The notes beneath the pieces were generated by a model. It had not been told where the DNA came from and did no database searches. It worked only from the letters and a program-made list of their open reading frames with translations. 64,000 bases of DNA, from NCBI RefSeq assembly GCF_036507355.1, contig NZ_AP027877.1; one strand, given 5' to 3'. A program made the translations under genes and the position numbers. Positions 2,145 through 18,840 of the stretch are shown one piece after another. The stretch's first letter is position 1; each line of letters starts with the position of its first letter. The DNA comes from Escherichia coli. GTDB lineage: Bacteria; Pseudomonadota; Gammaproteobacteria; Enterobacterales; Enterobacteriaceae.

Positions 2145-2201
2145 TTGGTGATGCTGCCAACTTACTGATTTAGTGTATGATGGTGTTTTTGAGGTGCTCC
2201 A

Positions 2202-2899: not shown

Positions 2900-3069
2900 G
2901 TTGGAGTCACTACCGTAGAAGTTAAATCAGGAAAATCGAAAAAAATGAAACGTTCGGCATTGTCGTCGAGTTCCGCTTAATGACGTATCCATCCCGTTTT
3001 CCCCTTCACGTTTTCATGTTTGATAGAGGGCAAAATTGAGCCCTCTCAATCAAGATAATGAGTGAAAAC

Positions 3070-6000
3070 CTATACCGTCCAGCTGTTCGACACCACTTCA
3101 GCCTGCTTCAGTATCAGTTCAACTGCATAAGGTGTTTTATCTGGCGGATACTTGTACTTACGCAGCGTCTGACGCACCAGAATACGTAACCGCGCACGCA
3201 CGCTTTCTCGCACCTGCCAGTCTACGGTTGTGGACTGGCGCAATTTTAACGTGACTTCGATAGCCAGTTTCTTAAGGACGTCATCACCCAGCTCCCGTAC
3301 CGCACTTTCGTTTTCTGCCAGCGCATCGTAGAACGCGATTTCGTCCGGGTTTAGCCCCAGCGCTTCATCACGCGCCATCGCTTCCTGAAACTCTTTTGCC
3401 ATCTGGATCAGTTCTTCAATCACCTGCGCAGTTTCAATGGCGCGGTTATTGTATTTGAGAAGCACGGCTTTCAGGCGATCTGAGTATTTCTTCTCCTGCA
3501 CCACGTTGTTTTTGGTGCGGGCATGAATGCCGTCGTTCAGCAGTTTCTCCAGCAACTCGACTGCCAGATTACGCTGCGGCAATTCGCGCACTTCTTCCAG
3601 AAACTCGTCTGACAACAATCCAATATTCGGCTTATCCAGACCCGCCAGCGCAAACACATCATCCACGCCCGTCGCAATAATGGCGTTATCGAGGATTTTA
3701 CCGAGTAGCGTATTTTTCTCTGACTGACTGAATTTTTTGTCGGTTGTCGTCAGCTTGATAATCGCCACTTTCACCGCCGACAAAAACGCGATCTCTTTTT
3801 GCAAGGGTTTAGCTTCATCTAACGTACTGCACAGCGACCAGGCTTTGTTCATCGCCAGCACGACATCGAAAAAGCGCTTCTTACCGTCATCAAGGCCCAG
3901 CACATAATCTGCGGCTTTGAGTAAAAACCGTTGGGGCACCTCTGCAAAACCGGTGTAATCAAACCCGGCGGCGGTTGGTGTTTTGGCAAACATTCCATGA
4001 ATCACATCCAGCTTTTCAAGCAGGATGGAGAACGCTTCATGAGCATCGACTGTCGTCTGTCCTTTACCTTTTGAATCGGTATAAGTTTTCAGCGCCTGTT
4101 TCAGTTCATTGGCGATACCGATGTAATCCACCACTAAACCGCCCGGTTTATCTTTGAAGACGCGGTTGACGCGCGCAATGGCCTGCATCAGATTATGCCC
4201 GCGCATCGGTTTGTCGATATACATGGTATGACAACATGGCGCATCAAACCCGGTAAGCCACATATCGCGCACAATCACCAGTTTCAACGGGTCGTTGAGA
4301 TCTTTAAAGCGCGCTTCAAGGCGTTTTTTGGTTTGCTTATTGTAGATGTGCGGCTGAAGGAATTTATTATCGGAGGCTGAGCCGGTCATGATGATTTTGA
4401 TTTCACCTTTCTCGACGTCATCACTGTGCCATTCCGGGCGTAGAGCCACCAGCGCATCATACAGCTTCACGCAGATCTCACGGCTCATGGCAACAATCAT
4501 TGCTTTGCCATTCATTGTGGCGTTACGTGCCTCAAAATGCTGAACCAGATCGGCGGCCACCTCATTGATACGAGGTTCAGAACCAACCAGTTTTTCCAGA
4601 CGGCTCCAGTCACTTTTGGTTTTCTCTTTCTGATCGGTCTCTTCATCTTCGACCAGCTCATCCACCTGATTAGACAGCGTTTCCAGCTCTTCGTGGTTGA
4701 GGTCGAGTTTTGCCAGGCGCGATTCATAGTAGATAGGCACGGTTGCGCCATCTTCCACCGCATCCTGTATATCGTAGATAGAGACGTAATCACCAAACAC
4801 CGCGCGGGTGTCTTTATCTTCGGAAGAAACCGGTGTTCCGGTAAAGCCCATAAACGACGCATTGGGTAACGCATCGCGCATATGTTTGGCGTAACCGTAT
4901 TTATAAGCGCCAGTCTCCCGGTTCAGCGTGGCGCTAAGACCATACTGGCTGCGGTGCGCTTCATCGGAAATGACGACGATATTGCTGCGCAGGTTTAGCG
5001 CCGGGTGAGTCTGTTCGCCATCAAGCGGGGCAAATTTTTGTACGGTGGTAAAAATAATCCCGCCTGATTCACGGACATTGAGCATCTCGCGGAGCTGGTC
5101 GCGATCGTTTGCCTGTAACGGTTCCTGCTTAAGCAAATCCTGTGCCTGGCAGAAGGTGGCATACAGTTGGCCGTCGAGATCGTTACGGTCGGTCACCACC
5201 ACGATGGTCGGGTTGTTCATTTCCGCTTGTTGTAGCAGTTTTCCGGCGTAACAACACATCGAGATACTCTTACCGGAACCCTGCGTATGCCACACCACAC
5301 CGGCTTTTTTACTGCCTGGCGTGATGTTGCTGCGCAGCGGCAAGTGTTTACCGGTAGAGGCCACAATCGTCGCCGTCACCGCTTCACGTACTGCGTGGAA
5401 TTGGTGGTAAGCGGCAATCTTTTTAATCAGTCGTTTGCCGTCGCTTTCAAACAGGATGAAGTAACGAATGTAGTCGAGCAGCAGTTCGCGGTTAAAGAAC
5501 CCTTTTACTACCGTTTCAAGCTGCCATTCAAACAGCGGTTTGTCGTCTTCATTAGACAGCGTTTTCCACGGCAAGAAGCGCTCTTCGTTCGCGGTGAGAG
5601 AGCCAATACGGGCGTTGTAGCCATCGCTGACCACCAGCGCTTCGTTGCAGATGAACAGATCGCTGAGTTCGTTTTTATAGGTCTGCAACTGATTAAATGC
5701 CGCCCAGATATCGGCATTAGCATCAATCGGGCTTTTCAGCTCAATCACTACTACTGGCAATCCGTTGATATAGCAGATAACGTCCGGGCGACGTACCTGC
5801 TTCGTTCCCTGGATGGCCACCTGATTCACCACCGTAAAGTGGTTATTATTTGGGTGGTTAAAATCCATCAGTAGCGCTTTGTCGTGGATAACTTTGTCAT
5901 CCTGCTTGTACTGCACCGGCACGCCGTCGAGCAGCAGGTGATGGAAGGCTTTGTTACTGACGACCAGATCCGGGCTTTGCGCATGGGCGATACGCAGTAT

Positions 6001-6204
6001 CACCTCATCCAGCACGGCAACCGGGAGATGTGGGTTAATCTTTTGCAACTGCTCCAGTAGCACCGGGCGCAAAAACACATCGTGGAACGACGCACGCAGC
6101 GGATTGTTGCCATCTGGCGCAATATCCGGCCCGTGCAATACTTCCCAGCCCAGTTCAGCAAACCATTGCAGGCTTTGCTGTTCTAAATCGTCTTCGCTCA
6201 GCAT
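3070..6204 (-). CDS. hsdR: Type I restriction enzyme R subunit (1044 aa)
   Basis: It has Walker A (WHTQGSGKS), a DEAH box ([13 protein letters not shown]) and a long helicase core. It is the last gene of the hsdM-hsdS-X-hsdR operon. Its ATG overlaps the upstream stop (cTGATGc). Confidence 0.95.
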
Positions 6205-7391
6205 CAGGTTTCCTCTGTCTCGGTTTCTTCCATTTCTTCGGGCACGTTTGAAATCTCTTTGAGCGCCATATTCAGTGGGGCAATAAAGGGATCTAACGCT
6301 TTTTCAAATGCCGTCAGGTTTACCAGTAGCCAGTCGATCATTTCAGGCCAGTTGGCTTCATCAAGGCTGATGGCCGGGCTGGCATAGGAAATTCGACACG
6401 ATTTTTTACCCGGCAGAGGTTCCCACTTAAGCGCATGGCCAAACGCGTTTTCAATTGCCTCTTTGCGTTCATGTAGCCAGTTAAAAGCAAAGGTATTGCT
6501 CTCTGCGGAAGCTTTGGCAATCCACAGCTCAACCCGAATCTCTTTTTTACTGAAAATCAGGTTATACGACACCGCGCTAATACCAGAGCCCGCACTGATC
6601 CAGTGATCGGTAGAGGGGCTGATATTGTTATATAAGTGGCAGGAGCTGGCTTTGAGGCGCTCCAGCATCTTTGTCCAGAAAGCTTTACGCATTAATTGGA
6701 CTGGCTTTACTCCGCCGCTGACGGATTGTTCTTCCGCCTCTTTTTGCGCCATACCGATCATGTAAGATTCTGCTTCCGGTGTGGGGATAACCTGACGGAT
6801 ATCAACGAATACATCGTCGTTGAACTTATAGGGTTTAACCTTAAAGCACTGTACCCGCAGACCAAATTGCATGAGCCACAGGGCAGTGTTGGTCACCTCT
6901 TTGCGAAAGTTGGCTGCGACCATGATGATTCGCTGTGTACGGCTCTGGTTGATTAAGGCTTCATCCAGCGTTTCATATTCGAGGAATTCAGCAAGCACCT
7001 CTGCCGCCGGGCGATTTTCCTCTGGGTCGTATTTATCCAGATAAAGCTGGAAGATCTGCAGAATTTGCTCTTTACGCAGGTTGGCGCAATACCCGGCATA
7101 TTTGAGCGCTTGCCAGACGACGTCGCGACCTGAATCATCGAGCTTATTCTCGATGATCACCAGATTGCCTTTTTTATCGATAGCCAGCAGGTCAAGGCGC
7201 TCTTTGGTGTCGTCAAAACCGGCGAACTCTTTCTGTATAATCAGTAGTTCATCGTCATTATCGCGAGTTAACGCTTGGGGATTCTGCGCCAGCCATTCCT
7301 GCAGATTGCCACGTTCGGTAAAACCAAGACTACTGAAAGAGACTTCCTGTAGGGAGTGTAAGCTGTTAGTCGGCGTATCAACTTTATACAT
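6204..7391 (-). CDS. 395-aa protein embedded in the type I R-M operon. It has an N-terminal PD-(D/E)xK (NucS/DUF91-like) motif and a C-terminal region reminiscent of DUF4268.
   Basis: The start at 7391 (MYKVDTP...) overlaps the hsdS stop (ATGTATAA). The motif [21 protein letters not shown] gives D...ExK. There is no P-loop. The stop overlaps the hsdR start. Confidence 0.7.
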
Positions 7392-8769
7392 TTTCCACCT
7401 CACTGACTGCCTGTTCTGCTTCCTGCAGGGTAATTTCACCCGAGAGAAGTTTGGGGAGAAGGGTGTCGCGGAGTTGGGTTAGTGATTCAGTTTGTACACT
7501 GAGCGATTTAATCTCATTAAATAAATGTGTACATTTGGCATGAAATAACTCCAATACTTTAGCATCAGGCTGAGCGATTTTAATTCCTGAGAAAGTAGAC
7601 GTATTGACATTTAAAGTTGCACTACCTGCGCTACCTAAAATGTGAAGATGATCTTTCAATCCCAACATACAAAAATAAAGATAATAGAGTAAGGAACTCT
7701 TATGAGGTGTAACAGAATTTATTTGCTGATTGGTATGAGATGGTTCATTGGTGATAGAAACAACACCAATAGTAGCTATACAACTAACACAGATAGAATT
7801 TGCGGGTACAAGTTTTTTTAGTTGCGACTTTGAACCGGCTTCGCTTAAATATTCATTAGTTTTAAGCACAAAAAGTTGCCCATGCATATCTGGTATCTTT
7901 ATGAATGGAACATCACTACCGTAATACTCTGGTTCTTTTTTTGACGGAGTTTTGCCACAAGTAACCTTCCCCATCTCACTAATTGACGCCACCCCCCATC
8001 CTTTAGGAATCGCCCCTAACTCACTGTCCTGCATCGCTGCCGGAAACAGTTCTGCCGTGGCTTTTAACTCGGCATATTGCTCAGGGTGTTCACGCTCAAA
8101 AACCGCCAGCGCATCCGCATCTTTCCCAGAAATGGCGGTCATGGCGGCAAGTGTTGCGTCTGCCTGCGAACCGCCCGCATCCAGTACTGCCATTTTGGCT
8201 TTTACGGGGTCAAAATCAACAAACCAACTTTTGAACAGGGCTTGTGCCATTTGTTCGAGGGTTTGGTTGATGCGATTATTACTATCAATTTTTTTACTTA
8301 ACGTAAAAATTAGCTTTGTACATCTTTTTTGATATTTTAAAGAAGGAATCTTTATTTTGTAGCTCAGCATGGCCCCTTTATCACCTCGAGGCATTTTTGC
8401 GCCCTTGGATGTAAGATGGCTATAATTAATAAAATCATCACTGCTTAAAATCAAATGTAAATATTCACTTGTGAGTTTTTCATGTGTAGTCCTAAATACT
8501 AGCACATCAGGAGAAACACCTCCGTAAAATGTGGCAAACCATACTTTTTTAAAGTACGTTCGAATATTAGAAAATAAAGTATCACCTATTTCAAAAGAAT
8601 TAAATTTGTTGACATCAGGGATGCCTGATGAAATAGTTACACCCTGACGGTCAGGCAACATATTTTCCGTGGAAATATAATTAGTAACATCTATAATAGA
8701 TGCATCACATTTTTTTGTGACTATCTCTACAAAGTTACCTAACTCAGTTTCGATGAACTCAAAACTCAT
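7384..8769 (-). CDS. hsdS: Type I R-M specificity subunit (461 aa)
   Basis: The start MSFEFIETELGNF at 8769 overlaps the hsdM end by 11 nt. Two variable target-recognition regions are separated by conserved helical spacers (LEQMAQALFKSWFVDFDPV ... LTQLRDTLLPKLLSGEI). Confidence 0.9.
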   Translation of the reverse strand: MSFEFIETELGNFVEIVTKKCDASIIDVTNYISTENMLPDRQGVTISSGIPDVNKFNSFEIGDTLFSNIRTYFKKVWFATFYGGVSPDVLVFRTTHEKLTSEYLHLILSSDDFINYSHLTSKGAKMPRGDKGAMLSYKIKIPSLKYQKRCTKLIFTLSKKIDSNNRINQTLEQMAQALFKSWFVDFDPVKAKMAVLDAGGSQADATLAAMTAISGKDADALAVFEREHPEQYAELKATAELFPAAMQDSELGAIPKGWGVASISEMGKVTCGKTPSKKEPEYYGSDVPFIKIPDMHGQLFVLKTNEYLSEAGSKSQLKKLVPANSICVSCIATIGVVSITNEPSHTNQQINSVTPHKSSLLYYLYFCMLGLKDHLHILGSAGSATLNVNTSTFSGIKIAQPDAKVLELFHAKCTHLFNEIKSLSVQTESLTQLRDTLLPKLLSGEITLQEAEQAVSEVENV

Positions 8770-10468
8770 AACCCAGCCCCCCCAGATTCGCCTTAATCTG
8801 CGCTTCCAACTTCGCGCTCTCTTCAAGCTGATCTTTAAGCTGCGCCGTCAGGCGCGCCATCTTCTCGGCAAACGGTTCATCATCTTCAGCTTGCTCGGCG
8901 GCACCAACGTAGCGCCCAGGGGTCAGCACAAAGTCGTTTTTCTGGATATCCTCCAGCGTTGCTGAGAAGCAGAATCCGGCTTCGTCTTCGTAGTCTTTAT
9001 CCGTCTGCCAGGCGTGGAAGGTATCGGCAATTCTGGCGATATCTTCGCGGGTAAAGTCGCGCAACACGCGATCTTTCATATAACCAATCTGGCGCGCGTC
9101 GATAAACAGCACTTCACCTTTACGGTGCGCTTTGCCGTTGCCACCGGATTTATCTTTGGTCAGGAACCAGATACAGGCTGGGATTTGGGTGTTGGTAAAC
9201 AGTTGCCCTGGCAGCGCCACCATACATTCCACCAGATCCGCTTCAATCAGGTTGCGGCGGATCTCGCCTTCATTGTTAGTGTTGGAACTCATCGAACCGT
9301 TCGCCAGCAGCAGCGCCATCGAACCTTTTGGCGCGAGGTGGTGGATCATGTGCTGCATCCACGCAAAGTTGGCGTTGCCCTGCGGCGGTGTGCCGTATTT
9401 CCAGCGCACGTCGTTTTCCAGCTTCGCGTTCCACCACTCCTTCATGTTGAACGGCGGGTTTGCCATCACGAAGTCAGCGCGCAGATCCGGGTGCTGGTCG
9501 TCTAGCAGGGTGTCGGCGTTTTTGGCACCAAAGTTAAAGTCGATACCGCGGATCGCCATGTTCATCGCCGCCAGCTTCCAGGTGGTCGGATTCGACTCCT
9601 GGCCGTAAACGGAAATATTGCGCTTCTGCTCAGCGGCGTTGTAATTCTTTTCGCCCGCGTGCTCTTCAATGAAACGGTCGCTGGAAACGAAGAACCCGCC
9701 GGAACCCATTGCCGGGTCATACACCCGCCCGTTGTACGGTTGCAGCATTTCGACAATCAGGGTCACGATGCTTTTTGGCGTGTAGTACTGACCTCCCTGT
9801 TTACCTTCCGCCAGCGCGAATTGCCCCAGGAAATATTCGTAAACGTGGCCGAGAATATCTTTGCTCTTTAAGCTGAGTTTCTCGCCGTTATATTCCGGGT
9901 TGCTGAAGTTTGCGTCAGAGAAGGTATTAATCAGCCCGGTCAGCACCTCGTTACTCAGTTGATACTGGCTGATGCGATTCAGAATACCTTTCAGTTTCGG
10001 GTTGGTTTTTTCGATTTCATCCAGCGCGTTATCCACCAGCCAGGAGACAGAGCGCAGCGTCACATCCTTGCCGGTGGTTTCATCCACCCACAGCACGGTG
10101 CCGGTCGGCAACATGGCTTTGTTTTTCAGCGTGTCCCAGCGCGCGGCTTTTGGCACCCAGAAGATGTTCTTTTCGGTGTAGTAATCTTCAACTTCCAGCT
10201 CTTCCTGGATAGCCTGAGCGTATTCTTCGTCGGAACCGTAATCATCGCGCGACATGGCGTAGATGTTGTCGGGATTACCGACATCGCGGAACAGGGTCGT
10301 CAGCTCCTGCTGACGCGCCTCGAAGGCATCAGAAACATACTTCAGGAAGATTAGCCCCAGCACCACATGCTTGTAGTTGGCGGCATCCATATTGGCGCGC
10401 AGTTTGTCGGCGGCCTTCCAGAATTTGTTATCCAGCTCGTTCAGAAATAGCTGTTCAGCGTTGTTCAT
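8759..10468 (-). CDS. hsdM: Type I R-M N6-adenine DNA methyltransferase subunit (569 aa)
   Basis: The start is MNNAEQLFLNELDNKFWKAADKLRANMDAANYKHVVLGLIFLKYVSDAF. The AdoMet motif is VYDPAMGSGGFF and the catalytic motif is VMANPPFN. Confidence 0.95.
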   Translation of the reverse strand: MNNAEQLFLNELDNKFWKAADKLRANMDAANYKHVVLGLIFLKYVSDAFEARQQELTTLFRDVGNPDNIYAMSRDDYGSDEEYAQAIQEELEVEDYYTEKNIFWVPKAARWDTLKNKAMLPTGTVLWVDETTGKDVTLRSVSWLVDNALDEIEKTNPKLKGILNRISQYQLSNEVLTGLINTFSDANFSNPEYNGEKLSLKSKDILGHVYEYFLGQFALAEGKQGGQYYTPKSIVTLIVEMLQPYNGRVYDPAMGSGGFFVSSDRFIEEHAGEKNYNAAEQKRNISVYGQESNPTTWKLAAMNMAIRGIDFNFGAKNADTLLDDQHPDLRADFVMANPPFNMKEWWNAKLENDVRWKYGTPPQGNANFAWMQHMIHHLAPKGSMALLLANGSMSSNTNNEGEIRRNLIEADLVECMVALPGQLFTNTQIPACIWFLTKDKSGGNGKAHRKGEVLFIDARQIGYMKDRVLRDFTREDIARIADTFHAWQTDKDYEDEAGFCFSATLEDIQKNDFVLTPGRYVGAAEQAEDDEPFAEKMARLTAQLKDQLEESAKLEAQIKANLGGLGYEF

Positions 10469-10830
10469 GTAAATCCTCGGGGTAGATCGCAGCGAAAGAG
10501 CAACCATGCCTTATCGCAAATTCAGTTTTGGAATGCAGTTCGCAAAATGATACCCGGTACACTTACGATTACAAATGCGCGGTATAAAGAAGTTTGCATT
10601 TGATCGGTGAATAATAGGAAACTCAGTCACTGTTTCGTCTGCAAAATCAGCCATTTCGCCTTCATACGTAGTTCTTCGGTTGAATAGTAAGGTCTATCAT
10701 GCTGCATCGAACGGTGATTTTGATGGATGTTGGAAGTGAGTAGCTGTACGTAATTTTTGATTAAAAGTAATCAAAATGTTGCCAATGGTTATGCTATCGT
10801 GTGTTTTTTGAATATATAACAGGTAAAACT

Positions 10831-11721
10831 ATGTCCTGGCTTAATTCTGTCTTATTGGCGCTTACCTCGGTGCAACCTTATATGGTACCGGCAACCGTTA
10901 TCGGCCTCGTCAGTTTTGCATTCCTCTGTTTTATTTTCTTTTATTTTTTTAGAGCAGTTAAAATTATTAACGGCCTGAAAAAATATACTCAGTCAATTAA
11001 TGGCATCGAAAATAATGAGCCTGGTAATCAGCTTCAGCATCTGCAAAGTTTGTTTGTACAGCCTGAGTTAAAGCACGCCTGGAATGAATTCGAAGAATCG
11101 TTGCACTCACAATATGAACTGGAGGACGGGGAAGAGAAAATCGTCCGTATTAGGGCTACTGCACCGAGCGCCAGTTTCTTCTCGGAGCAACAACTGGTCG
11201 ATATTCCGCTGAACACCGAATTTTTCAAACACCTGCCCGGTATTCTGACCGGTGTGGGGATTATCGGTACCTTCTACGGTCTGATGATTGGTCTCAACCA
11301 CTTCGACCCCAGCACACCAGAGCAGGTCTCCAGCAGCGTCAATAATCTGCTTCGCGATGTGCTGTACGCCTTCCTCGGTTCAGCATTTGCGATTACGTTC
11401 TCTATCCTTATCACCTGGCTGGAGAAATTCTGTCTGGCGAAATGCTACAAATATCTGGAAAAATTCACCGCAGCTCTCGACGCCCTCTATGACAGCGGTG
11501 TTGGCGAGGAGTACCTTGCCTCACTGGTAAAATCCAGTAATGAAAGCGCGACCCAGGCACGCCATCTGAAAGAGAGCCTGGTTACCGATTTACGCGATAT
11601 GCTGCTGCATCTGGCCAACAGCCAGAAAGTGGAAAACGAGCGGCTAGCGACCACCCTCAGCACCACCTATCGCGAAACAGGACAACAGTTTGCCGAGCAA
11701 GTCAGCGGTGCGATTGAAAAC
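10831..11721 (+). pseudogene. MotA/ExbB/TolQ-type proton-channel protein (ZorA-like N-terminal ~297 aa), truncated by IS629
   Basis: It has N-terminal TM helices, then LPGILTGVGIIGTFYGLMIGL and LYAFLGSAFAITFSILITW (MotA/ExbB-like TM pair), then the beginning of a long helical tail. The reading frame runs into the first bases (TGA) of IS629 at 11722. The start is ATG 10831 or the upstream GTG 10801. Confidence 0.6.
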
Positions 11722-11775
11722 TGAACCGCCCCGGGAATCCTGGAGACTAAACTTCCTGAGAAAGAGGTAAACAGG

Positions 11776-12102
11776 ATGACTAAAAATACTCGTTTTTCCC
11801 CCGAAGTCCGTCAACGGGCAGTCCGTATGGTTCTGGAAAGTCAGAGCGAATATGACTCACAATGGGCGACAATTTGTTCCATTGCTCCAAAGATTGGCTG
11901 TACGCCGGAGACTCTGCGTGTCTGGGTTCGCCAGCATGAGCGGGATACCGGGGGCGGTGATGGAGGGCTCACCACCGCTGAACGTCAGCGTCTGAAAGAG
12001 CTGGAACGTGAAAATCGTGAACTGCGCCGCAGTAACGATATCCTTCGCCAGGCTTCCGCTTATTTTGCGAAGGCGGAGTTCGACCGCCTCTGGAAAAAAT
12101 GA
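11776..12102 (+). CDS. IS629 OrfA (108 aa)
   Basis: The translation matches IS629/IS1203 OrfA from memory. It has an HTH and a leucine zipper, and ends in the A-rich slippery region (ggaaaaaatga). Confidence 0.9.
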
Positions 12103-12989
12103 TGCCACTGCTGGATAAGCTGCGTGAGCAGTACGGGGTCGGACCGCTATGCAGCGAACTGCATATTGCCCCGTCAACGTATTACCACTGTCAGCAACAG
12201 CGACATCATCCGGATAAACGCAGTGCCCGTGCGCAGCGCGATGACTGGCTGAAGAAAGAGATACAGCGCGTATACGATGAAAATCACAAGGTATACGGTG
12301 TGCGTAAAGTCTGGCGTCAGTTGTTACGGGAAGGTATCAGAGTGGCCAGATGCACTGTGGCACGTCTCATGGCGGTTATGGGACTTGCCGGTGTTCTCCG
12401 GGGTAAAAAGGTCCGTACGACCATCAGCCGGAAAGCCGTTGCCGCAGGCGACCGCGTAAACCGTCAGTTCGTGGCAGAACGACCTGACCAGCTGTGGGTG
12501 GCTGATTTTACTTACGCCAGCACATGGCGGGGCTTCGTCTATGTGGCGTTCATCATTGATGTGTTTGCCGGATACATCGTGGGGTGGCGGGTCTCATCGT
12601 CCATGGAAACGACATTCGTGCTGGATGCACTGGAGCAGGCGTTATGGGCCCGTCGACCGTCCGGCACGGTCCATCACAGTGATAAAGGTTCTCAGTATGT
12701 ATCGCTGGCCTACACACAGCGGCTTAAGGAAGCCGGATTACTGGCATCAACAGGAAGTACAGGCGACTCGTATGACAACGCGATGGCGGAGAGCATCAAT
12801 GGTCTTTACAAAGCGGAGGTAATACACCGTAAGAGCTGGAAAAACCGTGCAGAAGTGGAACTGGCCACACTCACGTGGGTGGACTGGTATAACAATCGAC
12901 GATTGCTGGAAAGGCTGGGCCATACTCCTCCGGCAGAAGCAGAAAAAGCTTATTATGCTTCCATCGGAAACGATGATCTGGCAGCCTGA
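12099..12989 (+). CDS. IS629 OrfB (DDE transposase catalytic part, 296 aa)
   Basis: DDE/rve-type motifs are present: WVADFTY..., [17 protein letters not shown]. Confidence 0.9.
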
Positions 12990-13153
12990 GTTCACAGATA
13001 AAACACTCTCCAGGAAACCCGGGGCGGTTCACACTATTATTTCTCCGGTTAGCCTACAACAACGTTTTTATCAGAAGCTCAACCAGCAGATAATAGAAAT
13101 GAAAAACCCATTGCAGTGAAATTATTTTTGACAACATACAGCAGGAGTAAAAA

Positions 13154-13999
13154 ATGTTACGTGGTTCAGAAAGAAAAGAAGCATTAGCCAGTCTCAAAAG
13201 TGCAACTAACCGTTATGAAGTACAGGCTAAAGACACCCAGGATGAGATCACTGCCCTCTTTCTGTTACGCCAGAAATGCAGTAAGGACCTGATTGCCCGT
13301 GGTGAAAATTTTGTTAATCGACTGGCGAATACACCGAAAGAGTTTGATAAATCCTGGAGCGAATTGAAAGCGGAAATCGCTGAATTTGATAACGTGGTGG
13401 AAAAACTGGAAGAAGAATACCGCGCATCACATATTGGTAAAGGAACGGCTGCTGCGGGGGTTGCCGTTGGGGCGGGGGTCGCCGCATTTGCCCCTACGGC
13501 TGCGCTGGCGGTCGCAACAACTTTTGGTACAGCATCCACGGGTACCGCTATTGCTACGTTAAGCGGAGCTGCCGCAACAAATGCAGCCCTGGCATGGCTC
13601 GGCGGCGGCGCACTGGCTGCGGGTGGCGGTGGCATGTCAGCAGGAAGCGCACTACTGGCTCTGGCGGGTCCAATAGGCTGGGGGATTGGTGCTGTAGGCA
13701 TCGCTGGCGGAACCTTACTAGCCCGTCGCAAAAACGGTAAAATCATTGATGAAGCACAACAGGAAGAGCGCCAGGTTCGCGCAAAAACCAGCGAACTTCG
13801 CGTGATGGAACGTGGTGCGCAAGAACTCAAGATGCTCACATCCGAGCACTATCATGGTACTGAAAGCATTATTGATGTGCTGGAAAAGGCTGCGCCTCAA
13901 GACTATTGCCAGTTTAATACCCATCAGAAAGATCAATTAGGGGCATTGATTAACCATATCAATGCATTATCAAAACTGATCAACAAGAAAATCCAGTAA
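13154..13999 (+). CDS. 281-aa coiled-coil protein with a central Gly/Ala-rich hydrophobic (glycine-zipper-like) region. Function unknown.
   Basis: AGGAG lies 7 nt upstream of the ATG. The N- and C-terminal thirds are charged and helical. The centre, GKGTAAAGVAVGAGVAAFAPTAALAVATTFG...LAGPIGWGIGAVGIAGGTLLARRK (~95 aa), is hydrophobic. Its stop overlaps the next start (TAATG). Confidence 0.75.
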   Translation: MLRGSERKEALASLKSATNRYEVQAKDTQDEITALFLLRQKCSKDLIARGENFVNRLANTPKEFDKSWSELKAEIAEFDNVVEKLEEEYRASHIGKGTAAAGVAVGAGVAAFAPTAALAVATTFGTASTGTAIATLSGAAATNAALAWLGGGALAAGGGGMSAGSALLALAGPIGWGIGAVGIAGGTLLARRKNGKIIDEAQQEERQVRAKTSELRVMERGAQELKMLTSEHYHGTESIIDVLEKAAPQDYCQFNTHQKDQLGALINHINALSKLINKKIQ

Positions 14000-15444
14000 T
14001 GAGCATTAACCATAATACAGTTGGCGACCAGCTTATCGGCAGCGCGGTTAACGCCATTAATCAGACCCGCATTGATAATGAACTGTTAAAACTATCGCAG
14101 CAGGATCGTGCATTTGAGTTGGCTGGCGAACAAATGCAAAAGGTGCGTGATTTCATCGCGTCACCGGGTAACATCCTGGGCTCAATGAGCACCAAACACG
14201 GTGAAATTGCTGAGCAGGTAGAAGTTGGCGTGCGCAATGCTCGCCAGGCAATAGAAGAAAGGGTTCAGGATGCCTCTGATCTTAGCGCCACGTTTGACGG
14301 AGTGGGTCGAACCGCTCCGGCGGATTATATGATAGATGGCGTTGACGTGCAGTCAAAGTTTATCAACGGAGTTAATAATAACCTGAACCATGTCCTTCAG
14401 CACATGGAAACCTATCCCAATTTCACCCGGGGAGAATCCTTTTACCATATCCCCAAAGACTCCTGGCAAACGATTCAGGATGTTATTGATGGGAAGCCGG
14501 TGGAGGGCTTGAGCGAAAAAACAATACAGGCTATCAGGGATAAAGTTGCAGAAATTGAAAGTACAACGGGAAGATCCTTTAATGATGTCGTGCGTCCTGG
14601 AGTTTCTGATTACAAAGATGTTCAGTGGGGAAAAATTGACGAAACTCTTGATAAACATGATCAGGAATTAGCGGAACAGAACGAGGCAAAAAAAGCAGAA
14701 ATTATTGACGATCACCAACCCTCCCTAAGTGAAGGCATGCGTGCAACCGCAATGGGAGCCGCTTTCGGTGGAACCTTTGCTCTTGTAACAGGTATATATA
14801 GCAAATACCGTGACGGTAAAAATATATTTCGTGGAGATTTCAACAGACAGGACTGGCAGGATGTCGGCTTAGATACATTGAAAGGTGCCGCTATTGGCGG
14901 TGTATCCGCCGGAGCAATTTATACCCTGACCAATTATGCCTCTCTGGGAGCACCGTTCGCCAGCGCGCTGGTCACTGCCGCTAAAGGTGTAAGCAATCTT
15001 GCTCTCTCCTATCAGCGCGGTGAGATTAATGCTGATGAATTTACCGATCTTGGCCTTATCATCTGCGCGGAATCGGCCATCGTTGGCGCAATGTCTGTCG
15101 CAGGTCAGGCAATCATCCCTGTGCCTGTTTTGGGGGCATTGGTTGGTTCTATCTCAGGGAAGTTTATGGTTACCGTAGCTAAAAATCTGGACAGTAAAGC
15201 ACGCCAATTGCTGGCGAAAAAAATGGAGCAATTTACATGTCGCTTAAGTGAGATTGAGCAGAAAGCACTCAACCGAATTTTGAACGAGTTCGCGGCGCTG
15301 GGTGAGCTTACCGCAGCTGCATTTAGCGTGGAAAACAATCGCCGGTTGCTGGAAGCAAGCATCACGCTTGCCCAAGCCCACGGTGTTGAAGAGGCGAAGA
15401 TAATCAAAAATGCGGATGATCTTGACACATTTATGATGGCGTAG
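13999..15444 (+). CDS. 481-aa protein with an N-terminal soluble domain (HG-x2-AE ... AD-x3-DG-x-DVQSKF) followed by a Gly-rich multi-helix membrane region. Function unknown.
   Basis: It is translationally coupled to the upstream gene. Hydrophobic Gly/Ala-rich segments span residues ~245-400. The soluble domain is paralogous to residues ~405-460 of the next protein. Confidence 0.75.
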   Translation: MSINHNTVGDQLIGSAVNAINQTRIDNELLKLSQQDRAFELAGEQMQKVRDFIASPGNILGSMSTKHGEIAEQVEVGVRNARQAIEERVQDASDLSATFDGVGRTAPADYMIDGVDVQSKFINGVNNNLNHVLQHMETYPNFTRGESFYHIPKDSWQTIQDVIDGKPVEGLSEKTIQAIRDKVAEIESTTGRSFNDVVRPGVSDYKDVQWGKIDETLDKHDQELAEQNEAKKAEIIDDHQPSLSEGMRATAMGAAFGGTFALVTGIYSKYRDGKNIFRGDFNRQDWQDVGLDTLKGAAIGGVSAGAIYTLTNYASLGAPFASALVTAAKGVSNLALSYQRGEINADEFTDLGLIICAESAIVGAMSVAGQAIIPVPVLGALVGSISGKFMVTVAKNLDSKARQLLAKKMEQFTCRLSEIEQKALNRILNEFAALGELTAAAFSVENNRRLLEASITLAQAHGVEEAKIIKNADDLDTFMMA

Positions 15445-15480
15445 CACTCGAATAAAAATTACAGCAAGGATAAAACCACA

Positions 15481-18003
15481 ATGCTACAGATAATTGGTGC
15501 GTTAATTTTACTGGTAATCGGTTTTGTTATTATAAAAGCGTTGTTTAAGGCATCTCTCAATATTCTAGGTGTGATATTAGGATTGGGTGCATTGATTGTT
15601 GCAGGCCCACCTTTATTGGCGGGCTATATTGTAGAGCGCGTAACCTATGCGCTTCACTCACGTTGGCTGCTGGGTGTACCTCTTGCCATAGCAGGAATGG
15701 TGATTAGCTTTATGTGGGGACTTGATGGTAAACATATTGCCTACGAAGCCTATTCATTTGATTCAATGAAGTTTATTTTAACCGCTGCATTTGCCAGTGG
15801 CCTGCTTGCAGTACCTGTACAAACCAAGGCTATTCTACAAAACGGGCTTATACCAGCCGATATCAATGCCAAACTTAAAGAGTATTATTGCTGTTTTTAT
15901 ACGTCTTACTTTTTGATGGCCTGCTCTGCGGCTACACCGTTTATAGCCTGGCAATATAATATCTCATCTTCACTGATGTGGTGGACAGGATTGCTATACT
16001 GGATAGCAGCCTTACTGACACAGTTCTATGCGGCAAACCAAATTCAGGAACTCAAGAAGTTAACTAATGCCATCAATACAGGGTTAAATGAGCAAAAAGC
16101 GATCAATAACCAACTTTGGCTGACGGAACTAAAAGAAGGAAGTAACCTCTCAGCAGAATTCGTAGAGACTATCTATCTTAAGTTGGTCTCACAGCATATT
16201 TTTCAGGGCGATACTCGAGAGCAGGATCTGGCTGGTGAAAACTGGCTTTTAAATGATGCCTGGTATGAAAGAAAGATGGCTGAATTTAATGAGCAGTTAA
16301 ACAGTAAAATTGTACACTCATCAGATGAGCTAAGAAGCCTTTTTGGTAATAGGCTGAATTTACCCTCTGCTGCGAATGATGATCTCCTGAACCGTTATCT
16401 TGATGGTGGGAACTATTATTCTTTTTCGGATGGTCGAAAATTTGTCTCGTTTCACTATGTCGACGAGCTTTGTACCTGCACTTCATGCGGTTTGAGCGAG
16501 ATTAAAAACGCAAAACACCAGGACGGTTGTGGGAGCCAGGAATGGTATTGCTCTGATATTTGCCGGGAAACGGAAAAACTCTGCATTGAAATTCACAAGC
16601 GACCACAGGCTGAATTTATTTCCAGTGCAGCAACAAACGGTCTGATTCTCATGACGCTCCCGGAGGCCTGGAATACTAACGAAAAAATGTTTGCAGTGGG
16701 AGGACAAGGACATGGTTTTGCAGCCGAACGGGGAAATCATCTTACTGACAAAATCCAACTAAAAGATGCACATATTCTCGGTGATGATAATGCGAAAAAT
16801 GGTGCAGACAGGCTGGTTAACGGTTCAGAGATTCAGACCAAATACTGTGCAACCGCTGCACGTAGCGTCGGTGCTGGTTTTGACGGACAAAACGGTAATT
16901 ATCGCTATTATGACAGTAACGGAACCCCAATGCAGTTAGAGGTTCCGAAAGACCAGTATTCGAAAGCGCTTGAAACGATGGAGAACAAAATTCGCGATGG
17001 CAAAGTCCCCGGCGTTACCGATCCTGCAGAAGCCACAAAACTTGTACGTCAGGGACACCTGACTTATAGCCAGGCACAAAACATTACTAAGTTTGGCACG
17101 TTCGAATCTATCACTTACGACATTGCGGAAGGATCTATCATCAGCCTCGCAGCTGGAGGTATCAGCTTCGGTCTGACAGCTTCTATTTTCTACCTCAATA
17201 CCGGCGATCGTAAGGCTGCGTTGCAAACGGCAGCAATACAGGCAGGTAAAACATTTACCCGCACACTGACAGTTTATGTGACGGTACAGCAATTACACCG
17301 TATCAGTGCCGTTCAGGGGTTACTTAAAAATATTGATTTTGCCGCTGCCAGCCCGACAGTTCGTAATGCGCTTCAACAGGGAGTCGGAGCTAACAATCTC
17401 AACTCCCTTAACAAGATGATGCGTGGCACACTGGTTACCTCTTTCGCACTGGTCGCCGTGACCACTGGTCCGGATATGATCAAAATGGTGCGAGGTCGTA
17501 TTTCTGGGGCACAGTTTATAAAAAATCTGGCAGTTACTTCATCTGGTGTGGCTGGGGGGGCAATTGGTTCTATTGCTGGCGGAATGATGCTTAGTCCATT
17601 AGGTCCTTTCGGTGCTTTAGCAGGACGCGCAGCTGGTGGCTTGTTAGGCGGTATGATTGCCACAGCGATTTCCAAAAAAATAGCGGGTGCACTGGTTGAA
17701 GACGACCGAGTAAAAGTGCTGGCTCTCATCCAGGAACAGGTTACATGGCTTGCAACAAGTTTCATGCTTACAGCACACGAACTTGAAAACCTGAACGCGA
17801 ATCTGGCAACAGTAATTGACCAAAAAACCCTGGAGGTTATCTTCGCCGCAAAAGAGCAAGACCGAGCAACGGCCAATATGCTGATTAAACCACTTGTAGT
17901 AAGTGTGGTTAAGCAACGACCGGTCCTGAGCTATGAACAATCGCAAATCTGCGAAATGGTCGATCAGCTTGATACATCGGTTTCATTATCTGCTGTTGCA
18001 TAA
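15481..18003 (+). CDS. 840-aa polytopic membrane protein. It has ~6 N-terminal TM helices, a Cys-rich (MYND/zinc-ribbon-like) segment, an HGFAAE...ADRLVNGSEIQTKY domain and a C-terminal Gly-rich membrane region. Function unknown.
   Basis: AAGGA lies ~10 nt upstream of the ATG. TM-like stretches span residues 1-185. The Cys cluster is CTCTSCG-x14-C-x6-YCSDIC-x6-C at residues 331-368. Unverified recollection: the N-terminus resembles YeeR-type inner-membrane proteins of E. coli CP4-44-like islands. Confidence 0.75.
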   Translation: MLQIIGALILLVIGFVIIKALFKASLNILGVILGLGALIVAGPPLLAGYIVERVTYALHSRWLLGVPLAIAGMVISFMWGLDGKHIAYEAYSFDSMKFILTAAFASGLLAVPVQTKAILQNGLIPADINAKLKEYYCCFYTSYFLMACSAATPFIAWQYNISSSLMWWTGLLYWIAALLTQFYAANQIQELKKLTNAINTGLNEQKAINNQLWLTELKEGSNLSAEFVETIYLKLVSQHIFQGDTREQDLAGENWLLNDAWYERKMAEFNEQLNSKIVHSSDELRSLFGNRLNLPSAANDDLLNRYLDGGNYYSFSDGRKFVSFHYVDELCTCTSCGLSEIKNAKHQDGCGSQEWYCSDICRETEKLCIEIHKRPQAEFISSAATNGLILMTLPEAWNTNEKMFAVGGQGHGFAAERGNHLTDKIQLKDAHILGDDNAKNGADRLVNGSEIQTKYCATAARSVGAGFDGQNGNYRYYDSNGTPMQLEVPKDQYSKALETMENKIRDGKVPGVTDPAEATKLVRQGHLTYSQAQNITKFGTFESITYDIAEGSIISLAAGGISFGLTASIFYLNTGDRKAALQTAAIQAGKTFTRTLTVYVTVQQLHRISAVQGLLKNIDFAAASPTVRNALQQGVGANNLNSLNKMMRGTLVTSFALVAVTTGPDMIKMVRGRISGAQFIKNLAVTSSGVAGGAIGSIAGGMMLSPLGPFGALAGRAAGGLLGGMIATAISKKIAGALVEDDRVKVLALIQEQVTWLATSFMLTAHELENLNANLATVIDQKTLEVIFAAKEQDRATANMLIKPLVVSVVKQRPVLSYEQSQICEMVDQLDTSVSLSAVA

Positions 18004-18159: not shown

Positions 18160-18187
18160 TAACAAATAAGGGGGCATTTGCCCCCTT
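18160..18187 (-). terminator. Rho-independent terminator downstream of arsC. It may also terminate the convergent 840-aa gene.
   Basis: AAGGGGGC-attt-GCCCCCTT forms an 8-bp GC-rich stem. On the minus strand it is followed by TATTTGTT. Confidence 0.7.
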
Positions 18188-18192
18188 CATCA

Positions 18193-18618
18193 TTATTTCA
18201 GTCGTTTACCTGCATCATCAACGACTTTCTCGCCGTCTTCCTTAGCAAATGCGCCTTTTTGCGCATCCGGAAGAATATCCAGTACCACTTCGGAAGGACG
18301 GCACAGACGCGTTCCCAATGGTGTCGCCACAATCGGGCGATTAATCAGGATCGGATACTGAAGCATAAAATCGACTAACTGATCGTCAGTAAACTTATCT
18401 TCCGCAAGCCCCAGTTCTTCATAAGGTTCAACATTTTTACGCAATAGTGCCCGTACCGTTATCCCCATATCTGCGATGAGTTTGAGCACCTCATCGCGTG
18501 AAGGTGGATTTTCAAGGTAAAGAATAACGTTCGGTTCAGTACCGCTGTTGCGGATCATCTCCAGCGTATTACGCGACGTGCCGCAGGCTGGGTTGTGATA
18601 AATAGTGATGTTGCTCAT
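18193..18618 (-). CDS. arsC: Arsenate reductase (glutaredoxin-type), 141 aa
   Basis: The translation MSNITIYHNPACGTSRNTLEMIRNSG...RLCRPSEVVLDILP matches E. coli ArsC from memory, including catalytic Cys12. Confidence 0.95.
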   Translation of the reverse strand: MSNITIYHNPACGTSRNTLEMIRNSGTEPNVILYLENPPSRDEVLKLIADMGITVRALLRKNVEPYEELGLAEDKFTDDQLVDFMLQYPILINRPIVATPLGTRLCRPSEVVLDILPDAQKGAFAKEDGEKVVDDAGKRLK

Positions 18619-18630
18619 ATCAATATCTCA

Positions 18631-18840
18631 TTACAAAGTGAAAGAGAGACGTAGCGCCAGCGCGGCCAGCGTTACAAACAGCACAGGCAGAGTCATGATG
18701 ATCCCGGTGCGGAAATAGTATCCCCAGGTGATGGTCATGCTCTTCTGTGAAAAGACATGCAGCCAGAGTAGCGTTGCCAGGCTACCAATAGGTGTAATTT
18801 TCGGCCCCAGATCGCAGCCAATCACGTTGGCATAAATCAT
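18631..18840 (-). pseudogene. arsB: 3'-terminal fragment (last ~69 codons) of the arsenite efflux pump gene arsB
   Basis: The translation ...[22 protein letters not shown]...[20 protein letters not shown] is the ArsB C-terminus (intact ArsB is ~429 aa). No arsB sequence or arsR lies further upstream (right of ~18841). Confidence 0.85.

What the first reader, a model, noticed from the sequence alone, without database searches (positions are those of the whole stretch)
13154..18003. Intact three-gene operon of membrane-associated proteins of unknown function (281 aa glycine-zipper/coiled-coil, 481 aa, 840 aa): second candidate novel system
Seen in sequence:
- Three plus-strand genes have strong SDs, a TAATG stop/start overlap (13999) and a 36-nt gap. 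They end at a shared terminator. They are intact even though the IS-decayed neighbours are not.
- P281 is two charged coiled-coil arms around a ~95-aa Gly/Ala-rich hydrophobic core (GVAVGAGVAAFAPTAALAVATTFG...IGWGIGAVGIAGGTLL). This layout resembles alpha-helical pore-forming or membrane-remodelling proteins.
- P481 and P840 each combine a soluble domain with Gly-rich membrane helices.
- P840 adds ~6 N-terminal TM helices and a Cys-rich zinc-finger-like segment (CTCTSCG...WYCSDIC...C).
- No enzymatic motif (P-loop, nuclease, protease) is evident.

Inference: a membrane-disrupting effector module in a defence-island context, or a toxin/secretion-related module. Unverified recollection: the P840 N-terminus resembles E. 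coli YeeR-type island proteins, which themselves have no known function.
Basis: partly seen in the sequence, partly recalled or inferred. Interest (0 to 1): 0.75.

Follow-up and report, generated by a model that had tools for sequence, protein, structure and literature searches.

The report
Two adjacent uncharacterised membrane-protein modules
The three genes are real and intact, but they are two separable modules of unknown function rather than one new system: a two-gene cassette already listed as an untested phage-defence candidate (PADLOC PDC-M09), followed by a full-length copy of the common E. coli island gene yeeR.

Summary
The three ORFs (281, 481 and 840 aa) exist as described. Genes 1 and 2 match the PADLOC models PDC-M09A and PDC-M09B (E 2e-120 and 3e-214). 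PDC-M09 is an untested 'guilt-by-embedding' defence candidate (Payne et al., bioRxiv 2024). A sits directly upstream of B in 76 of 77 evaluable loci across several phyla, and natural A-B fusion proteins exist. Gene 3 is a full-length YeeR-family protein (PF27347). YeeR stands alone in all 8 relatives inspected. It is present in 48% of complete E. coli genomes, usually as agn43-yeeR-irmA. A-B plus YeeR occurs only in a small enterobacterial island lineage, behind a BrxR/CapW-type WYL regulator. In this window an IS3 element has removed all but about 28 codons of that regulator.

Three further results came out of the analysis:
- M09A recurrently and weakly resembles the XaxA subunit of binary alpha-pore-forming toxins (14 of 27 family members).
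- M09B and the YeeR C-terminal module share a collinear conserved polar motif set (HGxxAE, D, QxK, PKD) followed by glycine-zipper helices. They are probably distant homologues.
- No solved structure matches the soluble domain.

The most likely function is an inward-acting membrane-permeabilising or exclusion effector carried on mobile elements. This is inferred, not shown. The pair is a new member of a catalogued but uncharacterised kind.

The parts
11776..13028 (+). IS3-family insertion sequence (orfA 11776-12102, orfB 12099-12989). It has replaced most of the WYL regulator gene, and in this window it also abuts a deletion of zorA'-zorD.
   Evidence: ORFs. Annotated as an IS3 family transposase in ET826. 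Homology to strains without the IS starts at window 13029. The 7.17-kb deletion relative to ET826 is.
13029..13119 (+). 3' remnant (about the last 28 codons plus the stop) of the HTH-WYL-WCX regulator gene that precedes the cassette in intact relatives.
13154..13999 (+). PDC-M09A (P281): N- and C-terminal helical arms around a nearly invariant Gly/Ala/Thr-rich hydrophobic core (aa 97-190 = nt 13442-13723).
   Evidence: PADLOC PDLC04407 E 2.4e-120. Alignment A3. Hydropathy. XaxA model hit in 14/27 members.
13999..15444 (+). PDC-M09B (P481). Soluble alpha/beta domain at aa ~55-215 (nt 14161-14643) with invariant H67 G68 E72 D109 Q118 K120 P152 K153. Glycine-zipper membrane helices at aa ~245-395 (nt 14731-15183). 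C-terminal helical domain.
15481..18003 (+). Full-length YeeR-family protein (P840). N-terminal 5-6 TM helices (aa 1-204, nt 15481-16092). Beta-hairpin/helix domains plus a Cys4-5 zinc-ribbon-like cluster (aa 333-368, nt 16477-16584). YeeR_C soluble domain (aa ~400-545, nt 16678-17115). Glycine-zipper helices (aa ~548-740, nt 17122-17700). C-terminal helical domain.
   Evidence: PF27347 on the 99%-identical cluster P0001, with UniRef names 'Inner membrane protein YeeR'. Alignment A2. Model. About 68% nt identity to the 838-aa E. coli yeeR.
18168..18187 (.). GC-rich hairpin between the convergent P840 and arsC genes. It is probably the arsC terminator and possibly bidirectional.

Best explanation
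The segment holds two adjacent, separable membrane-protein modules carried as cargo of a CP4-type integrative island.

Module 1 is the two-gene cassette PDC-M09.
- M09A is a small protein with two helical arms and a highly conserved glycine-zipper hydrophobic hairpin region. It is weakly XaxA-like.
- M09B has a cytoplasmic alpha/beta domain with a conserved polar pocket, followed by glycine-zipper membrane helices.
- The two act as one physical unit.

Module 2 is a full-length YeeR protein. It carries the same kind of soluble domain plus glycine-zipper module as M09B, fused to its own N-terminal polytopic membrane domain and a zinc ribbon. It works on its own.

In intact relatives a BrxR/CapW-type WYL repressor sits upstream. 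Here an IS3 element has destroyed it.

Inferred mechanism. The soluble domain senses or processes a cue from an invading element. The glycine-zipper helices, together with M09A in module 1, then reorganise in the inner membrane from the cytoplasmic side and permeabilise or depolarise it. This aborts the infection or excludes the invader.

Status of each step. Shown: the identities, the pairing, the separability, the regulator and the context. Inferred: homology between M09B and YeeR_C. Not shown: the pore-forming activity and the defence role.
For: Identity of the three genes:
- PADLOC hits at E 2.4e-120 and 2.9e-214.
- PDC-M09 is cassette CAS_00055, 'assign as candidate', one of 145 untested candidates.
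- YeeR family assignment.

A-B unit:
- A lies directly upstream of B in 76/77 evaluable loci. These span Enterobacterales, Vibrio, Aeromonas, Pseudomonas, Acinetobacter, many cyanobacteria, an actinobacterial MAG, Aerococcaceae and a Cetobacterium plasmid.
- The start/stop codons overlap.
- Natural A-B fusion proteins exist: P0457 (A part E 2e-44) and P0480.

Separability:
- A-B occurs without YeeR in all non-enterobacterial loci and on Klebsiella IncFIB plasmids.
- YeeR occurs without A-B in 8/8 diverse loci and in the usual E. coli agn43-yeeR-irmA context.
- Decay goes both ways: L008 keeps YeeR plus a B remnant, while L014 and L018 keep A-B plus YeeR remnants.

M09B and YeeR_C relatedness:
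- PADLOC M09B models hit P840 collinearly (441-733 to 103-395, E 6e-4; 577-740 to 251-409, E 6e-5).
- Domain-level hhalign gives P 2.4e-4, against 0.03-0.3 for mismatched control pairs.
- The invariant residues are shared and the predicted secondary-structure order is identical.

Membrane-acting reading:
- The XaxA model is hit by 14/27 M09A members, and no other family is hit by more than 2. MakA and NheB are weakly hit in the PDB.
- The hydrophobic core is the most conserved part of M09A.

Context:
- The cassette sits between Zorya/type I RM and a SIR2 gene.
- In Vibrio it sits in an ICE hotspot beside a Gabija-like pair and Abi_2.
- Neighbours elsewhere include DpdF, PsyrT, type I MTase and integrases.
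- YeeR lies next to a CBASS system, type I RM and TA modules.
- YeeR_C proteins occupy moron positions in prophages.

Regulator: the upstream gene has HTH, WYL and WCX domains.
Against: - No experiment on PDC-M09 or YeeR function was found in the literature.
- The XaxA hits are far below the curated cut-off (21.6 against 125 bits) and could reflect coiled-coil plus hydrophobic composition.
- hhalign probability for M09B against YeeR_C is only 12-43%.
- Many neighbours of M09AB in other genomes are housekeeping genes.
- An invariant polar constellation in the soluble domain suggests an enzyme rather than a mere sensor.
- The cassette tolerates loss of its presumed repressor in this strain, which argues against strong constitutive toxicity.
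Confidence: 0.55

Rival explanations
1. One integrated three-component system. A, B and the YeeR-like protein would work together under the WYL regulator, with YeeR as a third membrane subunit.
For: - The genes are co-oriented, the gap is 36 nt and holds no terminator.
- The order WYL-A-B-YeeR is conserved in E. coli, Enterobacter, Cedecea and an Enterobacter MAG (L001, L011-L013), with remnants in Yersinia and Serratia.
- B and YeeR_C look distantly related, so hetero-oligomers are conceivable.
Against: - The arrangement is confined to one enterobacterial island lineage. 70+ A-B loci lack YeeR, and 8/8 YeeR loci plus about 1,800 E. coli genomes with a near-full-length YeeR-family match (inspected in one, L116, which lacks A-B) lack A-B.
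- Each module survives loss of the other (L008, L014, L016, L018).
- The trio is present in only 5-6 of 5,426 complete E. coli genomes.
Confidence: 0.12
2. The conserved soluble domain of M09B and YeeR is a divergent PD-(D/E)xK-type (Mrr-like D...QxK) nuclease held at the inner membrane by the glycine-zipper helices. The modules would then exclude incoming phage or plasmid DNA by cutting it at the entry site, rather than by permeabilising the membrane.
For: - Residues E72/E416 (in a helix), D109/D443 (at the start of a strand) and Q118-x-K120 / Q452-x-K454 (in the next strand) are invariant. D and K are spaced 11 residues apart.
- The predicted order helix-strand-strand-strand-helix-strand matches the canonical core.
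- The QxK variant of the motif in Mrr is recalled from the literature and was not checked here.
- A restriction endonuclease (ThaI, 3ndh) appears in the Foldseek list.
Against: - No Pfam, NCBIfam or PDB sequence hit to any nuclease family was found, even at E up to 10.
- The first beta-strand of the core is not predicted in P481.
Confidence: 0.2
3. A function unrelated to immunity. Examples are a membrane-stress or envelope-remodelling function, or a maintenance, entry-exclusion or host-interaction function of the mobile element. YeeR, for instance, is co-transcribed with the Ag43 adhesin and IrmA.
For: - YeeR normally sits in the flu-yeeR-irmA unit, which is under phase-variable OxyR/Dam control.
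- One YeeR locus and many M09AB flanks are housekeeping genes.
- M09AB lies about 2.3 kb from psiA on Klebsiella plasmids.
- Both modules are rare in viral contigs.
Against: - Both modules have a patchy, horizontally transferred distribution and recur next to RM, Zorya, Gabija-like, CBASS, Dpd and TA genes and integrases.
- The WYL regulator has the BrxR/CapW architecture, which typically accompanies defence operons (the typicality is established knowledge).
- The cassette was selected by guilt-by-embedding inside BREX, DISARM or type I RM loci.
Confidence: 0.1
4. An exported binary cytolysin of the XaxAB/YaxAB type that acts on eukaryotic or competing cells.
Against: - The scores are far below the family cut-offs.
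- P481 has no NCBIfam hit at all.
- No secretion or release genes are adjacent.
- The hosts are mostly free-living cyanobacteria and environmental proteobacteria.
- M09B has predicted integral membrane helices, so it should stay in the producer's own membrane.
Confidence: 0.03

Closest known systems
PADLOC phage-defence candidate PDC-M09 (cassette CAS_00055, FAM_02775>>FAM_02807; Payne et al., bioRxiv 10.1101/2024.01.29.577857)
   Same: Genes 1 and 2 match the A and B models end to end (E 2.4e-120 and 2.9e-214), in the same order and on the same strand.
   Different: PDC-M09 is a two-gene, untested candidate with no proposed mechanism. Here it is followed by a YeeR gene and, in intact relatives, preceded by a WYL regulator. 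Neither is part of the catalogued cassette.
E. coli YeeR (CP4-44 island; Pfam PF27347 YeeR_C)
   Same: P840 is collinear over its full length with the 838-aa YeeR of many E. coli strains (67% aa, ~68% nt). It has the same TM, zinc-ribbon, YeeR_C and glycine-zipper architecture.
   Different: It is a divergent paralogue found at >99% identity in only 6 genomes. It lies after M09B instead of between agn43 and irmA. The K-12 reference YeeR (510 aa) is only the N-terminal 60%, because the 3' part is deleted up to yeeS. Its function is unknown in all cases.
Binary alpha-pore-forming toxins of the ClyA superfamily (XaxAB/YaxAB; also MakA, NheB)
   Same: It is a two-protein unit. The small subunit has long helical arms flanking a hydrophobic hairpin. 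The XaxA model is hit by 14/27 M09A members, best E 3.3e-6.
   Different: The scores are far below the family threshold. M09A is shorter (281 against ~340-400 aa). The partner is not XaxB-like. There is no export context, and the protein presumably acts on the producer's own inner membrane.
Tim17/Tim22/Tim23-OEP16 (PRAT) and Romo1-type glycine-zipper membrane proteins
   Different: They are eukaryotic organellar proteins, and no sequence relationship was shown. The model confidence in this region is low. This is a resemblance of helix packing, not membership.
WYL-regulated defence operons (BrxR of BREX, CapW of CBASS)
   Same: An HTH-WYL-WCX regulator gene lies immediately upstream on the same strand in intact relatives.
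   Different: The regulated genes are unrelated to BREX or CBASS. In this window IS3 has destroyed the regulator.

Membership tests
PADLOC PDC-M09 candidate system | The first protein matches the PDC-M09A profile over its full length. | tested here: met
   PDLC04407 E 2.4e-120, residues 1-280 to profile 1-280/282.
PADLOC PDC-M09 candidate system | The second protein matches the PDC-M09B profile over its full length. | tested here: met
   PDLC04409 E 2.9e-214, residues 2-480 to profile 2-479/480.
PADLOC PDC-M09 candidate system | A lies directly upstream of B on the same strand. | tested here: met
   1-nt overlap in the window. The same arrangement holds in 76/77 evaluable loci. L082 is the one exception.
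PADLOC PDC-M09 candidate system | Protection against phage. | not testable with these tools
   The source paper lists the 145 PDC systems as untested. No later report was found.
YeeR family (PF27347 YeeR_C) | Match to the family model. | tested here: met
   PF27347 is precomputed for the 99%-identical cluster P0001 and for nearly all of the 120 listed homologues. The local Pfam copy lacks this model.
YeeR family (PF27347 YeeR_C) | Full-length collinearity with E. coli YeeR. | tested here: met
   P0013 is 67% identical over 99% of the length. blastn covers 93% at 68% identity to the 838-aa gene between agn43 and irmA.
YeeR family (PF27347 YeeR_C) | The usual agn43(flu)-yeeR-irmA context. | tested here: not met
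   Here the gene is flanked by M09B and arsC. Context is not a defining feature of the protein family, but it is its usual setting.
Alpha-xenorhabdolysin/ClyA-type binary toxin, subunit A (NF033928) | Score at or above the curated cut-off (125 bits). | tested here: not met
   21.6 bits, E 1.1e-4.
Alpha-xenorhabdolysin/ClyA-type binary toxin, subunit A (NF033928) | The similarity is reproducible across the family rather than a single chance hit. | tested here: inconclusive
   14 of 27 diverse M09A members hit the model at E <= 0.1 (best 3.3e-6), and no other family is hit by more than 2 members. PDB hits to MakA and NheB reach only E 0.2-0.3.
Alpha-xenorhabdolysin/ClyA-type binary toxin, subunit A (NF033928) | ClyA-like fold, and a XaxB-type partner. 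| not tested
   [not shown]
PD-(D/E)xK nuclease superfamily | Conserved acidic residue plus (D/E/Q)xK on adjacent strands of an alpha-beta-beta-beta-alpha-beta core. | tested here: inconclusive
   The invariant residues and predicted secondary-structure order fit this pattern in both families.
PD-(D/E)xK nuclease superfamily | Detectable structural or profile similarity to a known member. | tested here: not met
   [not shown]
SLATT 2TM effector domain (PF18181) | Match to the model in the family, not in one member only. | tested here: not met
   Only the window protein hits, at E 0.029. That is 1 of 26 members.
WYL (BrxR/CapW-type) regulated operon | An HTH-WYL-WCX regulator gene lies directly upstream. 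| tested here: met
   This is met in relatives (L001, L011-14, L016, L018). In the window only about 28 codons survive, at 13029-13119.

The most novel reading that the evidence does not exclude
M09B and YeeR_C define a previously unrecognised superfamily of membrane-anchored effectors. They are built from a new alpha/beta domain with an H-E-D-QxK-PKD pocket plus a glycine-zipper membrane module. The module is deployed in three ways: with a XaxA-like partner (PDC-M09), fused to a polytopic domain (YeeR), or with other N-termini in Gram-positive prophages. If so, YeeR would be an immunity or exclusion protein. YeeR-family DNA is present in about half of complete E. coli genomes, near full length in about a third, and the gene has been unexplained since the K-12 genome. 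M09A would then be the first ClyA/XaxA-type pore-former used from the inside for abortive infection.
Probability: 0.22. Interest if true: 0.75.

Novelty: new member of a known kind. Interest (0 to 1): 0.45.

Why it matters
- The probable kinship between M09B and the C-terminal module of YeeR gives a concrete, testable hypothesis for YeeR. YeeR is one of the commonest E. coli island genes still without a function.
- The shared invariant residues supply ready-made mutants.
- If the XaxA-like reading of M09A holds, it would link alpha-pore-forming toxins to intracellular immunity. Gasdermins are the established precedent for pore-formers in that role.

Tried and rejected
- BLASTP of P481 against P840 found nothing. 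Full-length hhalign gave only probability 12%. The relationship rests on the PADLOC profiles, the domain-level hhalign and the shared motifs.
- Pfam, NCBIfam and PHROGs gave no family for P481 or P840.
- PDB sequence searches with single sequences and with profiles found nothing below E 0.003. The best hits were glycine-zipper segments.
- The SLATT_1 hit of P840 was rejected as chance, since only 1 of 26 members hits.
- PHROG tape-measure hits of the Gly-rich segments were judged compositional.
- The idea that the YeeR N-terminus is a fused M09A was tested by hhalign and found no support.
- The 283-aa ORF upstream of the Aliarcobacter YeeR is not an M09A relative.
- I first assumed that K-12 YeeR was the C-terminal part of the protein. 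It is in fact the N-terminal 60%.
- Literature searches for PDC-M09, the protein accessions, and YeeR together with defence found no functional data.
- The promoter-like site at 13128-13155 overlaps the start codon and was not taken as a promoter.


Full report
**Observation**

The three + strand ORFs are present exactly as reported: 13154-13999 (281 aa), 13999-15444 (481 aa) and 15481-18003 (840 aa). Genes 1 and 2 overlap in TAATG. Gene 3 follows after 36 nt with no terminator-like site in between.

Only gene 1 has a strong Shine-Dalgarno sequence (GGAG). Gene 2 appears to depend on translational coupling, and gene 3 has AAGGA.

The nearest hairpin, at 18168-18187, lies 165 nt past the stop codon of gene 3. 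It abuts the stop codon of the convergent arsC, so 'shared terminator' is only partly apt.

Hydropathy and family alignments confirm the protein features:
- P281 has an uncharged Gly/Ala/Thr-rich core (aa 97-190) between charged helical arms.
- P481 and P840 have Gly-rich hydrophobic helices.
- P840 has 5-6 N-terminal TM helices.
- P840 has a Cys cluster whose five cysteines are invariant in 26 homologues down to 35% identity.

**Where it sits**

The DNA is E. coli, 100% identical to strain ET826 over the finding. The trio occurs in only 5-6 of 5,426 complete E. coli genomes.

In the window an IS3 element has replaced all but about the last 28 codons of this regulator (window 13029-13119). The surroundings are defence genes in various states of decay:
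- a type I RM system;
- a Zorya system, reduced here to the first 307 codons of zorA by a 7.17-kb deletion next to the IS3;
- a fragmented SIR2 gene;
- arsC with a truncated arsB.

**What genes 1 and 2 are**

Both match PADLOC models end to end: PDC-M09A (E 2.4e-120) and PDC-M09B (E 2.9e-214). PDC-M09 is cassette CAS_00055 (FAM_02775>>FAM_02807). It was 'assigned as candidate' in the guilt-by-embedding study of Payne et al. (bioRxiv 10.1101/2024.01.29.577857). That study states that its 145 PDC systems are untested. I found no later functional report.

A scan of one genome per species found M09B relatives in 249 stretches. In the 80 best loci, M09A lies directly upstream in 76. Three of the remaining four lack upstream sequence, and one Nostoc locus has B alone. 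The hosts span Enterobacterales, Vibrio, Aeromonas, Pseudomonas, Acinetobacter, many cyanobacteria, an actinobacterial MAG, an Aerococcaceae genome and a Cetobacterium plasmid.

A profile search of 1.84 billion representative proteins found 325 clusters at E <= 1e-30 and 920 at E <= 1e-3. It also found natural fusions in the order A then B. P0457 (876 aa) has an A part that is 45% identical (E 2e-44). P0480 (758 aa) has a divergent A part.

Strict synteny, start/stop overlap and fusion proteins together show that A and B form one functional unit.

**What gene 3 is**

P840 belongs to the YeeR family. Pfam PF27347 (YeeR_C) is recorded for the 99%-identical cluster and for nearly all of the 120 listed homologues. 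Several sources name these proteins 'Inner membrane protein YeeR'.

About 830-aa homologues occur in Pseudomonas, Methylomonas, Shewanella, Herbaspirillum, Cupriavidus, Dyella, Alcaligenes and Aliarcobacter. In all eight loci inspected, the gene stands alone with no M09A or M09B nearby.

The K-12 yeeR (510 aa) is only the N-terminal 60%. Its 3' part and the next four genes are deleted up to yeeS.

**Are the three genes one system?**

A-B plus YeeR is found complete only in E. coli, an Enterobacter, a Cedecea and an Enterobacter MAG (L001, L011-L013).
- Yersinia proxima and Serratia PL17 keep WYL-A-B with YeeR remnants.
- Enterobacter soli keeps WYL-A-B with no YeeR.
- Serratia UGAL515B keeps an 85%-identical YeeR, with only the last 78 codons of B beside it.
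- Klebsiella IncFIB plasmids carry A-B alone at 73% nt identity.

Each module therefore persists without the other. Co-transcription in this lineage remains plausible.

**A link between the modules**

The PADLOC M09B profiles also hit P840, collinearly:
- P840 441-733 to profile 103-395, E 6e-4;
- P840 577-740 to profile 251-409, E 6e-5.

BLASTP sees nothing, and full-length hhalign gives only probability 12%. Domain-level hhalign of P481 55-215 against P840 400-545 gives P 2.4e-4, compared with 0.03-0.3 for mismatched control pairs.

A joint alignment shows the same invariant residues in the same order in both families: HG-x-x-AE, D, Q-x-K followed by an aromatic residue, Y, PKD, and G-x-x-x-Y.

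The two AlphaFold models predict the same order of elements (helix, hairpin, helix, strand, helices). This is followed by glycine-zipper helices and a C-terminal helical domain.

I conclude that M09B and the YeeR C-terminal module are probably distant homologues. This is an inference with moderate support.

Shorter YeeR_C proteins with other N-termini, or with none, occur in prophages. One lies between an endolysin and a serine recombinase (a Firmicutes-type prophage, judged from its lysis genes). Another lies next to tail-fibre genes (a high-G+C, actinobacterial-type prophage). Both are moron-like positions.

**Structure and family searches**

P481 gave a confident N-terminal domain (pLDDT ~90) and low-confidence membrane helices.
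- Foldseek against the PDB found nothing below E 0.17.

No solved structure is related by sequence. The soluble domain therefore has no recognisable relative.

Its invariant E, D and QxK on a helix and two adjacent strands fit the canonical PD-(D/E)xK layout. The only nuclease match (ThaI, probability 0.11) is not significant, so I keep this reading as a rival at about 0.2.

For M09A, the NCBIfam model of alpha-xenorhabdolysin subunit A is hit by the window protein (E 1.1e-4, 21.6 bits against a cut-off of 125). It is also hit by 14 of 27 diverse family members (best E 3.3e-6), while no other model is hit by more than two. MakA and NheB appear weakly in the PDB searches.

This is a reproducible resemblance to the stalk-plus-hydrophobic-foot part of ClyA-type pore formers, not family membership.

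**Context elsewhere**

For M09AB:
- It lies in a Vibrio ICE variable region beside an OLD-TOPRIM/UvrD (Gabija-like) pair and Abi_2.
- It lies in Aeromonas integrase islands.
- Among 111 neighbouring ORFs from 30 non-enterobacterial loci, hits include integrases (5), helicases, type I methyltransferases, DpdF, PsyrT, WYL regulators and dynamins. Many plain housekeeping genes also appear.

For YeeR:
- It lies next to RES-Xre and HicAB modules, a TIR protein, a type I RM system, a type II CBASS and integrases.
- In two loci it lies among housekeeping genes.

Both families are rare in viral contigs (5 and 8 loci out of 2.9 million). The context favours mobile-element cargo with a conflict-related role, but it does not prove this.

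**Mechanism**

Shown:
- the identities of the three genes;
- the A-B unit;
- the independence of YeeR;
- the WYL regulator and its loss in this window;
- the membrane character of all three proteins.

Inferred:
- the soluble domain receives or processes a signal;
- the glycine-zipper helices, with M09A in module 1, permeabilise the inner membrane from within, giving abortive infection or exclusion.

Against a strongly toxic constitutive effector: the genes are intact and identical in strains that have lost the presumed repressor.

**Novelty and score**

The pair is already catalogued as a candidate, and the third gene belongs to a named family. This is therefore a new member of a known but uncharacterised kind, not a categorically new system.

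Three points add interest. The cassette sits in E. coli and is directly testable. M09B is probably related to YeeR, one of the commonest unexplained E. coli island genes. M09A has a XaxA-like signal.

Interest is 0.45. The most novel reading not excluded is a new effector superfamily that explains YeeR. I give it a probability of about 0.22 and an interest of 0.75 if true.

Noticed in passing
window 10801-11724 and 11776-13028: zorA is cut after codon 307 at the left end of the IS3 element. Relative to the otherwise ~99.98%-identical strain ET826, the window lacks 7.17 kb (the rest of zorA, plus zorB, zorC and zorD). This looks like an IS3-mediated adjacent deletion of a complete type I Zorya system. 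The window also lacks the ISKpn26 copy present in ET826.
   Followed up: partly
[not shown]
   Followed up: partly
window 18193-18840: arsC is intact, but it is followed by only a 69-aa C-terminal fragment of arsB. This stranded arsenic-resistance remnant sits between the YeeR-like gene and the SIR2 gene in all strains that carry the trio.
   Followed up: no
window 3070-10507: The type I RM operon (hsdR, hsdS, hsdM) has a DUF4268 gene embedded between hsdR and hsdS. This is the kind of embedded gene that the guilt-by-embedding approach exploits.
   Followed up: no
[not shown]
   Followed up: partly
L115 (E. coli DH1, K-12 lineage) 3878-5410: The reference K-12 yeeR (510 aa) is a 3'-truncated remnant of an 838-aa gene. 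The deletion also removed irmA, DUF905, DUF932 and the antirestriction gene, and it joins yeeR to yeeS with a 4-nt overlap.
   Followed up: yes
P0457 (876 aa) and P0480 (758 aa), from the representative search: These are natural single-chain fusions of M09A and M09B. In P0480 the A part keeps the helical arms, but its hydrophobic core is not Gly/Ala-rich.
   Followed up: partly
L105 5401-7353 and L103 6001-7506 (IMG/VR prophage contigs): YeeR_C-type modules occur in what look like Gram-positive prophages, with a different N-terminal domain (650 aa) or none (501 aa). They lie between the lysis or tail genes and a serine recombinase.
   Followed up: partly
P281 aa 154-190, P840 aa 690-725, and phage tape-measure PHROGs: The glycine-zipper hairpin with a central G-P turn (AGxALLxLAGPxGxxxG) is shared by M09A and YeeR (hhalign P 0.0012). 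It also hits the hydrophobic segments of phage tape-measure protein families (E 1e-5 to 5e-7). This is probably compositional but was not resolved.
   Followed up: partly
L027 (Psychrobacter) 2115-15991 and L022 (Thiothrix) 9503-14635: M09AB is flanked on the same strand by very large ORFs (1,661, 2,161 and 1,710 aa). Two of the surveyed neighbours match DpdF models, which suggests the cassette is embedded in Dpd-type DNA-modification loci.
   Followed up: no
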